From the NCBI RefSeq assembly GCF_003790525.1, contig NZ_CP033635.1: 64,000 nt of DNA; one strand, written 5' to 3'. Shown piece after piece: positions 50,238 to 50,489 of the stretch. Numbering within the stretch: the first letter of the stretch is position 1; every line of letters begins with the position of its first letter. The notes below the pieces were generated by a model. It worked only from the letters and a program-made list of their open reading frames with translations. It did not search any database and was not told the DNA's origin. The translations under genes and the position numbers were made by a program. This DNA comes from Escherichia coli (GTDB taxonomy: Bacteria > Pseudomonadota > Gammaproteobacteria > Enterobacterales > Enterobacteriaceae).

Positions 50238-50489
50238 TCAACAATAAGTATAATGAGGTTGTCCCGGCACCGGTGGCAGTGGTTCGAGATAGACGTCATC
50301 AACAAAAACACAGGGGAATTTTTCAACTGCACATCCAGCACGCTCAGACATTACCTTCAGACTGATACCATGTTTCTCAGCATCAATAAAGAGGACATCT
50401 GCCCCTGTTTCATCCCGGAGATTTGTCGCATGATGCATGATCCGGTGTACTGAAGGACATGTTTTGTAACCAAAAACACATATACGCAT
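50238..50489 (-). CDS. glutaredoxin-like protein with CPSV motif
   Basis: MRICVFGYKTCPSV...VEKFPCVFVDDVYL aligns with the glutaredoxin fold (active-site position CPxV). Confidence 0.4.
   Translation of the reverse strand: MRICVFGYKTCPSVHRIMHHATNLRDETGADVLFIDAEKHGISLKVMSERAGCAVEKFPCVFVDDVYLEPLPPVPGQPHYTYC

What the first reader, a model, noticed from the sequence alone, without database searches (positions are those of the whole stretch)
50238..50489. Glutaredoxin-like protein with a single-cysteine CPSV active-site position
The 84-aa product aligns by eye with the glutaredoxin fold but has CPSV where dithiol glutaredoxins have CPYC, suggesting a monothiol or non-redox variant. It lies next to the conjugation remnants, where small thioredoxin-fold proteins often accompany transfer genes.
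Basis: inference. Interest (0 to 1): 0.35.

Follow-up and report, generated by a model that had tools for sequence, protein, structure and literature searches.

The report
Tail-bearing single-cysteine glutaredoxin-1 offshoot
This is a real 83-residue E. coli island gene descended from glutaredoxin 1 that kept the fold and first active-site cysteine, lost the second cysteine, the glutathione-binding residues and the last helix, and has no demonstrated function or tie to the nearby conjugation remnants.

Summary
The ORF is real: window 50238-50489, minus strand, 83 aa (not 84). It has an AGGAGG ribosome-binding site and is identical to E. coli WP_001354604.1.

All sequence and fold evidence points to E. 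coli glutaredoxin 1 (GrxA). Every score is below the family cut-offs. CPSV aligns to CPYC, so the single-cysteine observation holds.

The protein is not a canonical glutaredoxin:
- The basic residue three before the cysteine is Tyr.
- The motif Tyr is Ser.
- The C-terminal helix that holds glutathione is replaced by a conserved proline-rich tail ending in Cys83.

The family is very small: two E. coli island lineages, one close variant, and one other enterobacterial lineage that has CNLT instead of CPSV. Only Cys11 and His15 are invariant around the active site. dN/dS between the deep lineages is about 0.07-0.1, and the tail is the most constrained part.

The conjugation link is not supported. 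Relatives sit in non-conjugative contexts, no plasmid or phage carries a homologue, and the conserved unit is only about 0.6 kb.

My best guess, which is inference, is a cytoplasmic thiol-exchange protein that uses Cys11, possibly resolved by the tail Cys83, and does not depend on glutathione. I rate it a new variant of a known kind, of modest interest.

The parts
50238..50489 (-). Coding sequence of the 83-aa GrxA-derived protein, including the stop codon (identical to WP_001354604.1)
   Evidence: ORF list and sequence. RefSeq annotates it as 'hypothetical protein' or 'thioredoxin domain-containing protein'. NCBIfam GrxA E=3.8e-8. dN/dS 0.07 against lineage B.
50496..50501 (-). Shine-Dalgarno AGGAGG, 6 nt before the ATG
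   Evidence: Read from the sequence. The same CAGGAGGT block precedes the ATG in lineages A' and B.
50448..50459 (-). Codons 11-14, TGT CCT TCA GTA = C-P-S-V, at the position of the CPYC active site
   Evidence: HMMER alignments to 1EGO/1GRX. C11 is invariant in 24 full-length variants, and positions 12-14 vary.
50241..50285 (-). Codons 69-83: proline-rich tail EPLPPVPGQPHYTYC ending in Cys83, in place of the C-terminal helix of Grx1
   Evidence: Alignment with Grx1. No helix after residue 68 in either model. Nonsynonymous divergence of the tail is half that of the core.
50189..50210 (-). 3' stem-loop (9-bp G+C-rich stem, GUGA loop) 28 nt after the stop codon, with no U-tract; a possible terminator or mRNA-stabilising hairpin
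   Evidence: RNA fold -24.8 kcal/mol, z = -2.6. It is retained in L020, where a T-to-C change turns a G-U wobble into G-C. The terminator scan did not call it.
50490..50595 (-). Upstream region partly conserved between lineages A and B (blocks GCAGTRATAGCCA, AARTGTG, CATTTTTTA; -10-like TATTAT at 50520-50525); the presumed own promoter
   Evidence: Alignment of upstream regions. The consensus promoter scan found nothing on this strand at its threshold, so the promoter is inferred and not shown.

Best explanation
This is a cytoplasmic 83-residue offshoot of the glutaredoxin-1 (GrxA) lineage, carried as a small self-contained cargo gene of about 0.6 kb in E. coli genomic islands. It keeps the thioredoxin-fold core (beta1-alpha1-beta2-alpha2-beta3-beta4), the nucleophilic cysteine at the N-terminus of helix 1 (Cys11) and the cis-proline loop (Phe58-Pro59). 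It has lost the resolving cysteine, the residues that bind and activate glutathione, and the last helix. In their place it has an invariant His15 one helical turn after Cys11, a Cys60 right after the cis-proline, and a conserved proline-rich tail ending in Cys83. The identity, the fold, the losses and the purifying selection between deep lineages are shown by the analyses. The mechanism is inferred. I propose that it works by thiol-disulfide exchange through the Cys11 thiolate. It would form a mixed disulfide with a protein or small-molecule partner other than glutathione in the canonical mode. That disulfide would be resolved either by the mobile C-terminal Cys83, which emerges from beta4 where the glutathione groove normally lies, or by an external thiol. 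The partner, and the physiological role suggested by the neighbours (oxidative stress or metal uptake), are unknown.
Against: No activity, partner or expression data exist, and literature searches found nothing. Only three deep lineages exist, so conservation of three cysteines could be chance (roughly 1 in 10 given 46% invariant columns). I could not read model coordinates, so the distances between Cys11, His15, Cys60 and Cys83 are unknown, and the tail is modelled with low confidence (pLDDT 43-69). The window's copy compared with its closest variant shows dN/dS of about 1 (3 synonymous, 10 nonsynonymous changes), and the surrounding island is full of pseudogenes. Present-day selection on this copy is therefore unproven. 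Frameshifted or truncated alleles, including a 97-aa form lacking Cys83, occur in some strains. A basic residue (Lys/Arg9) is conserved next to the missing Cys-3 basic position and might partly substitute for it.
Confidence: 0.45

Rival explanations
1. It is a non-catalytic thioredoxin-fold adaptor or regulator. The fold is a scaffold and the proline-rich tail (PLPPxPGxP) is a docking motif for a partner protein, in the manner of KaiB, SH3BGRL3 or SspA-type thioredoxin-fold proteins. Cys11 would be retained for structural reasons or as a redox switch.
For: The glutathione-site residues and the resolving cysteine are lost. The tail is the most constrained segment. Non-redox thioredoxin-fold proteins appear among the structural neighbours.
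Against: Cys11 and the cis-proline are invariant although neighbouring positions vary. Non-redox relatives usually lose the active-site cysteine (established knowledge). No candidate partner gene is conserved next to it.
Confidence: 0.2
2. It is a metal-binding protein (metallochaperone or sensor). Cys11 and His15 on one face of helix 1 would form a Cys/His site together with Cys60 and/or Cys83. The CxxxH arrangement resembles the CxxxC plus His copper site of the thioredoxin-fold Sco proteins.
For: C11-x3-H15 is invariant and C60 and C83 are conserved. Neighbours in different contexts are metal- or oxidative-stress-related: iha, sitABCD, katG, sodC. The thioredoxin-fold metal binders ArsD and zinc-bound ERp44 appear among weak fold matches.
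Against: The neighbours are not co-oriented operon partners and differ in every lineage. The conserved unit is the gene alone. The geometry of the four residues was not measurable. The fold matches to metal binders are no better than to any thioredoxin. The resemblance to Sco is recalled from memory and was not tested.
Confidence: 0.15
3. It is an evolutionary relic. The gene was functional in the ancestral island but is now drifting in this decayed island and contributes nothing to the cell.
For: dN/dS is about 1 against the closest variant. The island is dominated by IS elements and pseudogenes. Many frameshifted alleles exist. PGAP leaves it unannotated in most genomes. It is rare: about 59 of 5426 complete genomes.
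Against: The window copy keeps every family-invariant residue, an intact reading frame, a strong ribosome-binding site and the conserved upstream block. Most of the derived nonsynonymous changes lie on the other (A') branch. Deep-lineage dN/dS is 0.07-0.10.
Confidence: 0.12
4. It is a canonical monothiol glutaredoxin that deglutathionylates substrates with GSH through Cys11 alone, as the Grx1 C14S mutant does.
For: It derives from GrxA, and Cys11, Pro12 and the cis-Pro are retained. A monothiol mechanism needs only the first cysteine (PMC5382279; PMC11567954 abstract).
Against: Key residues of both glutathione interaction sites are missing. The Cys-3 basic residue is Tyr8, the motif Tyr is Ser or Leu, and helix 4 with its Gly-x-Thr-Asp/Glu scaffold is absent. 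Scores fall below the Pfam and NCBIfam cut-offs.
Confidence: 0.05
5. It is an accessory thioredoxin-fold protein of the conjugation machinery whose remnants lie downstream.
For: It lies 195 bp upstream of the TIGR03757/DUF1525 and TraU-like pseudogenes on the same strand.
Against: No signal peptide, whereas conjugative thioredoxin-fold proteins act in the periplasm (established knowledge). No homologue in 72,556 plasmids or 50,697 phages. Intact elements have other cargo upstream of TIGR03757. Similarity with variant L020 ends about 72 bp after the stop codon. Lineages B and C have no transfer genes nearby.
Confidence: 0.03

Closest known systems
E. coli glutaredoxin 1 (GrxA; PDB 1EGO/1GRX; NCBIfam NF008401/TIGR02183)
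   Same: It is the only family with significant sequence matches and the best structural match. About 29% identity over residues 1-68. Same length class, same beta1-alpha1-beta2-alpha2-beta3-beta4 core, Cys11-Pro12 at the same position, Arg16, the AG motif before the cis-Pro loop, and the cis-proline.
   Different: CPSV (or CNLT) in place of CPYC. Tyr8 in place of Arg8. No GG-Tyr-Thr-Asp and no C-terminal helix; instead a conserved tail EPLPPxPGxPxYTxC. Invariant His15. Scores of 33-39 bits against an equivalog cut-off of 84. Encoded on rare genomic islands rather than the core genome.
Enzymatically active single-cysteine class I glutaredoxins (e.g. yeast ScGrx7, CPYS; PMC5382279)
   Same: A single active-site cysteine followed by proline; in principle capable of a monothiol mechanism.
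   Different: ScGrx7 keeps the activator Lys, the motif Tyr and the helix-4 scaffold residues (PMC5382279). All three are missing or replaced here.
NrdH-redoxin and phage T4 glutaredoxin (small glutaredoxin-like proteins of mobile or accessory genomes)
   Different: Both are dithiol (CVQC and CVYC) and keep the C-terminal helix. No sequence-level match to either was listed.

Membership tests
Thioredoxin-fold superfamily | beta-alpha-beta plus beta-beta-alpha topology, with the active site at the N-terminus of the first helix and a cis-proline loop | tested here: met
GrxA family glutaredoxin (NCBIfam NF008401 / TIGR02183, equivalog) | Score at or above the curated whole-protein cut-off (84 and 106.5 bits) | tested here: not met
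   33.4 and 26.9 bits for the window protein; 32.5 and 39.4 bits for lineages B and C on NF008401.
Pfam Glutaredoxin (PF00462) | Score at or above the gathering threshold (22.9 bits) | tested here: not met
   15 bits, E=0.029. Six of 7 family members match only at E>=0.001.
Class I (dithiol, CPYC) glutaredoxins | Second (resolving) cysteine in a C-P-Y-C motif | tested here: not met
   Val14 aligns to Cys14 of Grx1. Lineage C has Thr.
Enzymatically active glutaredoxins (class I, mono- or dithiol) | Glutathione activator site: a conserved basic residue three positions before the cysteine, and the Tyr of the CPY motif (PMC5382279) | tested here: not met
   Tyr8 aligns to Arg8 and Ser13 (Leu in lineage C) aligns to Tyr13. 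A conserved Lys/Arg9 lies at the neighbouring position; whether it can substitute is untested.
Enzymatically active glutaredoxins (class I, mono- or dithiol) | Glutathione scaffold site: the T-V-P loop and the start of the C-terminal helix (Gly-x-Thr-Asp/Glu; PMC5382279) | tested here: not met
   The loop is K/N-F-P, so only the cis-Pro is kept. There is no helix after residue 68 in either model, and the sequence there is EPLPP.
Enzymatically active glutaredoxins (class I, mono- or dithiol) | Glutathione-dependent disulfide reductase activity | not testable with these tools
   Needs HEDS or GSSCys assays with purified protein.
Class II monothiol (CGFS) Fe-S glutaredoxins | CGFS-type motif without proline, a WP motif in helix 3, an intact glutathione site to ligate a [2Fe-2S] cluster | tested here: not met
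   The motif is CPSV with proline retained. There is no sequence match to Grx4-type families. The glutathione site is degraded.
NrdH-redoxin | CVQC motif and sequence match to NrdH models | tested here: not met
   No NrdH model was listed at E<=10. 1H75 is only a mid-rank fold neighbour.
Conjugation-associated thioredoxin-fold proteins of ICEs and plasmids | Conserved position inside a transfer operon, and export to the periplasm | tested here: not met
   No homologue in plasmids. Other cargo sits upstream of TIGR03757 in intact elements. No signal peptide. Relatives lie in non-conjugative contexts.

The most novel reading that the evidence does not exclude
The family has built a new active site on a glutaredoxin-1 scaffold. 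Cys11 and the invariant His15 would work with a cysteine delivered by a conserved proline-rich C-terminal swinging arm (Cys83). This could be a self-contained redox relay that needs no glutathione, or a Cys/His metal site. It would serve island-encoded oxidative-stress or iron/manganese functions in extraintestinal and poultry-associated E. coli.
Probability: 0.15. Interest if true: 0.55.

Novelty: new variant of a known kind. Interest (0 to 1): 0.3.

Why it matters
If the protein is active, it would show how a housekeeping dithiol glutaredoxin can be rebuilt into a different kind of redox or metal-handling module. The changes are loss of the second cysteine, loss of the glutathione site and loss of the last helix, and gain of a cysteine-tipped tail. 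It would also add an uncharacterised accessory gene to islands that carry the virulence-associated iha and sitABCD loci. If it is inactive, it is only a small orphan family found in about 1% of E. coli genomes. In either case it corrects the idea that this gene belongs to the conjugation remnants. It also flags a gene that RefSeq annotation omits in most of the genomes that carry it.

Tried and rejected
1. Conjugation link. tblastn of the protein against plasmids and phages found nothing. Intact TIGR03757 neighbourhoods carry HNH or restriction-modification cargo, with no Grx-like gene. Rejected.

2. Wider family.
- Exhaustive phmmer over 1.84 billion representatives gave four true relatives plus two spurious repeat proteins, P0016 and P0017.
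- A profile search of the 5.8-billion-protein set added no new lineage.
- A scan of 100,044 species-representative genomes gave only one weak, probably spurious hit, L014.

3. Defence or phage function. PADLOC found nothing, and PHROGs gave only E=0.064.

4. Regulator sites in the conserved upstream block. By eye, OxyR (ATAG-n7-CTAT spacing), Fur box and mar-box comparisons gave at most about half-site matches. The promoter scan found nothing on the gene's strand. No claim is made.

5. Literature. Searches for the accession, for the CPSV motif with glutaredoxin, and for glutaredoxin with iha islands gave nothing relevant. A search for Grx1 glutathione-contact residues by number was unproductive.

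6. The 97-aa TTG start (50531). Rejected because the ribosome-binding site and all homologues fit the ATG at 50489.

7. The AlphaFold-database fold library was not available.

8. The shared neighbours dolP-like and DoxX of lineage B were sought in the lineage C contigs and in the window by tblastn. They were absent. Only YebF-like and outer-membrane-protein remnants are shared with the window.

Full report
**The observation**

The finding's coordinates hold an ORF on the minus strand, 50238-50489. It is 84 codons including the stop, so the product is 83 aa:
MRICVFGYKTCPSVHRIMHHATNLRDETGADVLFIDAEKHGISLKVMSERAGCAVEKFPCVFVDDVYLEPLPPVPGQPHYTYC.

The ORF lister extends it to a TTG at 50531. The ATG at 50489 is the better start because it is preceded by AGGAGG (50496-50501) with a 6-nt spacer, and every homologue begins at the same MRI. 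The protein is identical to E. coli WP_001354604.1. RefSeq calls it 'hypothetical protein' or, more recently, 'thioredoxin domain-containing protein'. In most genomes that carry the DNA it is not annotated at all.

**It is a real gene**

- The exact sequence is on at least 1000 contigs.
- Diverged copies exist:
  - lineage A' (P0005, 88% identity)
  - lineage B (P0032/P0033, 70%)
  - lineage C (P0014, 55%)
- Nei-Gojobori dN/dS is 0.07 for A-B and 0.10 for A'-B with synonymous sites saturated, and 0.2-0.35 against C.

**What it is related to**

- Pfam Glutaredoxin matches only weakly: E=0.029, 15 bits against a gathering threshold of 22.9.
- The NCBIfam GrxA equivalog NF008401 matches all three deep lineages (E=3.8e-8, 7e-8, 5e-10), but at 33-39 bits against a cut-off of 84. 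No other family is listed.
- Against PDB sequences the single protein finds only E. coli Grx1 (E=6e-4). The family profile finds it at E=1.8e-8.
- AlphaFold2 with Grx1 in the alignment gives pLDDT 88.5.
- As a control I predicted from the family alone, which gave pLDDT 69.4 with the core at 72-83. Both models have beta1(2-7), alpha1(12-28), beta2(31-36), alpha2(44-51) and beta3(60-63/64). Neither has a helix after residue 68.

The thioredoxin/glutaredoxin fold is therefore confirmed, and the ancestry is specifically glutaredoxin 1.

**How it departs from glutaredoxin**

The other changes are larger. PMC5382279 defines two glutathione sites in active glutaredoxins.

| Site (PMC5382279) | Defining residues | This protein |
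|---|---|---|
| Activator site | Conserved basic residue three before the cysteine; Tyr of the CPY motif | Tyr8 (invariant) aligns to Arg8 of Grx1; the motif Tyr is Ser13 (Leu in lineage C) |
| Scaffold site | T-V-P loop; first turn of the C-terminal helix (Gly-x-Thr-Asp/Glu) | Loop is K/N-F-P, with only the cis-Pro kept; the helix is absent |

In place of the helix is EPLPPxPGxP(H/Y)(Y/F)T(Y/W)C. This tail is not a frameshift remnant. It is conserved in lineages A, B and C, and its nonsynonymous divergence is about half that of the core (pN 0.083 against 0.178 for A-B; 0.178 against 0.349 for A-C).

Across 24 full-length variants, Cys11, His15, Arg16 and Pro59 are invariant. Cys60 and Cys83 each change in only one singleton. 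Positions 12-14 vary: PSV, PSI, PLV and NLT. A CPxV motif is therefore not the conserved feature. Cys11 followed four residues later by His15 is.

**Distribution**

The family is extremely small.
- An exhaustive phmmer search of 1.84 billion cluster representatives found four true relatives.
- A profile search added none.
- A scan of one genome per species for 100,044 species found nothing credible.
- Lineage A is in about 59 and lineage B in 19 of 5426 complete E. coli genomes, many from poultry and human extraintestinal isolates.
- Some genomes, such as PKF11 (CP156706.1), carry both lineages.
- Lineage C is on a metagenome-run contig whose katG is 75% identical in DNA to E. coli katG, so it comes from another enterobacterial genus.

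**Context, and the conjugation idea**

In the window, the gene is followed 195 bp downstream, on the same strand, by pseudogenes of DUF1525/TIGR03757 (49764-50042) and TraU-like/TIGR03756 (49120-49650 and beyond). Upstream lies iha (52237-54324).

In this window an IS3-family element (about 50671-51927) has inserted 181 bp upstream of the ATG, relative to strain XDL. This is beyond the ~105-bp upstream stretch that is partly conserved with lineage B.

None of these neighbours is conserved:
- Lineage A' shares only window 50166-50673 plus 51928-52005. That is the ORF, a 3' hairpin and about 260 bp upstream. It has neither iha nor the ICE remnant.
- Lineage B lies between a dolP-like BON lipoprotein gene and DoxX, next to sitABCD, in an island with a P4-type integrase.
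- Lineage C is convergent with katG and near sodC.

The B island and the window's island are old relatives. They share the integrase (roughly 50-65% aa in the aligned segments; window 29386-30603), a YebF-like gene (about 75%; 33839-34174), an outer-membrane-protein remnant and this gene, which is inverted in the window.

No plasmid or phage encodes a homologue. Intact TIGR03757 elements carry HNH or restriction-modification cargo at the corresponding place. The protein has no signal peptide, whereas conjugative thioredoxin-fold proteins act in the periplasm (established knowledge). I conclude that adjacency to the transfer remnants is an accident of island rearrangement.

**How it most likely works**

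Shown by the analyses:
- It descends from GrxA.
- It has a truncated thioredoxin fold.
- It retains the nucleophilic Cys and the cis-Pro.
- It has lost the second Cys and the glutathione-site residues.
- It has a constrained Cys-terminated tail.

Inferred: the protein exchanges disulfides through the Cys11 thiolate with a partner other than glutathione in the canonical mode. Cys83, at the end of a 15-residue tail that leaves beta4 at the normal position of the glutathione groove, may resolve the mixed disulfide. I give this 0.45.

Rivals:

| Reading | Confidence | Main point |
|---|---|---|
| Non-catalytic adaptor using the proline-rich tail | 0.20 | The tail is the most constrained segment, but Cys11 is retained |
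| Cys/His metal site (C11, H15, C60, C83) | 0.15 | The resemblance to the Sco CxxxC+His site is from memory only; metal/oxidative-stress neighbours are suggestive but not operonic |
| Drifting relic | 0.12 | See the caveat below |
| Canonical glutathione-dependent monothiol glutaredoxin | 0.05 | Disfavoured by the missing site residues |
| Conjugation accessory | 0.03 | Disfavoured by the context evidence above |

Fe-S binding of the Grx2 or CGFS type is unlikely in the E. coli lineages, because the proline is retained and the glutathione site is gone (established knowledge).

**Caveats**

- Against its closest variant, the window copy shows 3 synonymous and 10 nonsynonymous differences, a dN/dS of about 1. 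Most of the derived changes fall on the A' branch, including two at tail prolines that are otherwise conserved. Selection on the present-day copy is still unproven.
- Frameshifted alleles, including a 97-aa lineage-B form lacking Cys83 that is annotated in complete genomes, are not rare.
- I could not read model coordinates, so distances among the conserved Cys and His residues are unknown.
- The tail is modelled with low confidence.
- The promoter is inferred only. There is a -10-like TATTAT at 50520-50525, and the scan called nothing on this strand.
- The 3' hairpin (50189-50210) has no U-tract.

**Verdict**

The gene is a new variant of a known kind, a GrxA-derived family that fails the membership criteria for GrxA and for active glutaredoxins. 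Its function is unknown and its interest is modest.

Noticed in passing
window 50671-51927: An IS3-family insertion sequence of about 1.26 kb, with imperfect terminal inverted repeats TGTAGTGG(C/T)CA..., sits between iha and the Grx-like gene. Strain XDL and most other carriers lack it. It lies 181 bp upstream of the ATG and has a 3-4 bp target duplication.
   Followed up: partly
window 50738-50860 (+) and 62242-62384 (-): Rfam matches to the Salmonella 'sRNAs' isrC (150 bits) and isrN (138 bits). The isrC match lies entirely inside the IS3-family element, over the start of its first ORF, so here it is probably part of the IS and not an independent sRNA.
   Followed up: no
window 16530-16572 (+): Rfam match to ES036 (CssrF) sRNA, 44 bits, just above the gathering score, in the core-genome part of the window.
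   Followed up: no
window 29386-30603, 33412-33489, 33768-34174: A P4-type integrase, an outer-membrane-protein remnant and a YebF-like gene (apparently split) are homologous, at roughly 50-78% aa, to the same genes of the sitABCD island that carries lineage B of the Grx-like gene. The two islands are diverged relatives. No tRNA gene is present anywhere in the window, so the island is not at a tRNA site here.
   Followed up: partly
window 48328-50042 (-): Remnants of an ICE transfer operon with internal stops: DUF1525/TIGR03757, TraU-like/TIGR03756, and a 113-aa ORF annotated as hypothetical. Similarity with the close variant L020 ends near 50166, about 72 bp after the Grx-like gene's stop codon.
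   Followed up: partly
L016 7001-7294 (NZ_CP080260.1) and proteins P0009, P0042: Lineage B exists as an 83-aa form (common) and a 97-aa form in which a frameshift in the tail replaces PPEPGKPHFTYC and removes the C-terminal cysteine. P0042 looks like a double-frameshift intermediate (EPLHQNPGKPHFTYC).
   Followed up: partly
L008 1-1390 and 4543-4770: On the lineage C contig, the 1.39 kb upstream of the Grx-like gene has no called gene. A 75-aa ORF with no Pfam match lies between katG and sodC.
   Followed up: no
window 46857-47309 (-) and 42542-44521 (-): Intact genes amid the IS debris: a secreted SgcJ/EcaC-family protein (150 aa, with a signal peptide-like N-terminus) and a PhoX-family phosphatase. 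Next to them are decayed iron ABC-transporter genes.
   Followed up: no
E. coli genome hits H16-H41: In most RefSeq genomes that carry an identical copy of the 252-nt gene, PGAP annotates no feature there. The gene is systematically under-annotated.
   Followed up: no
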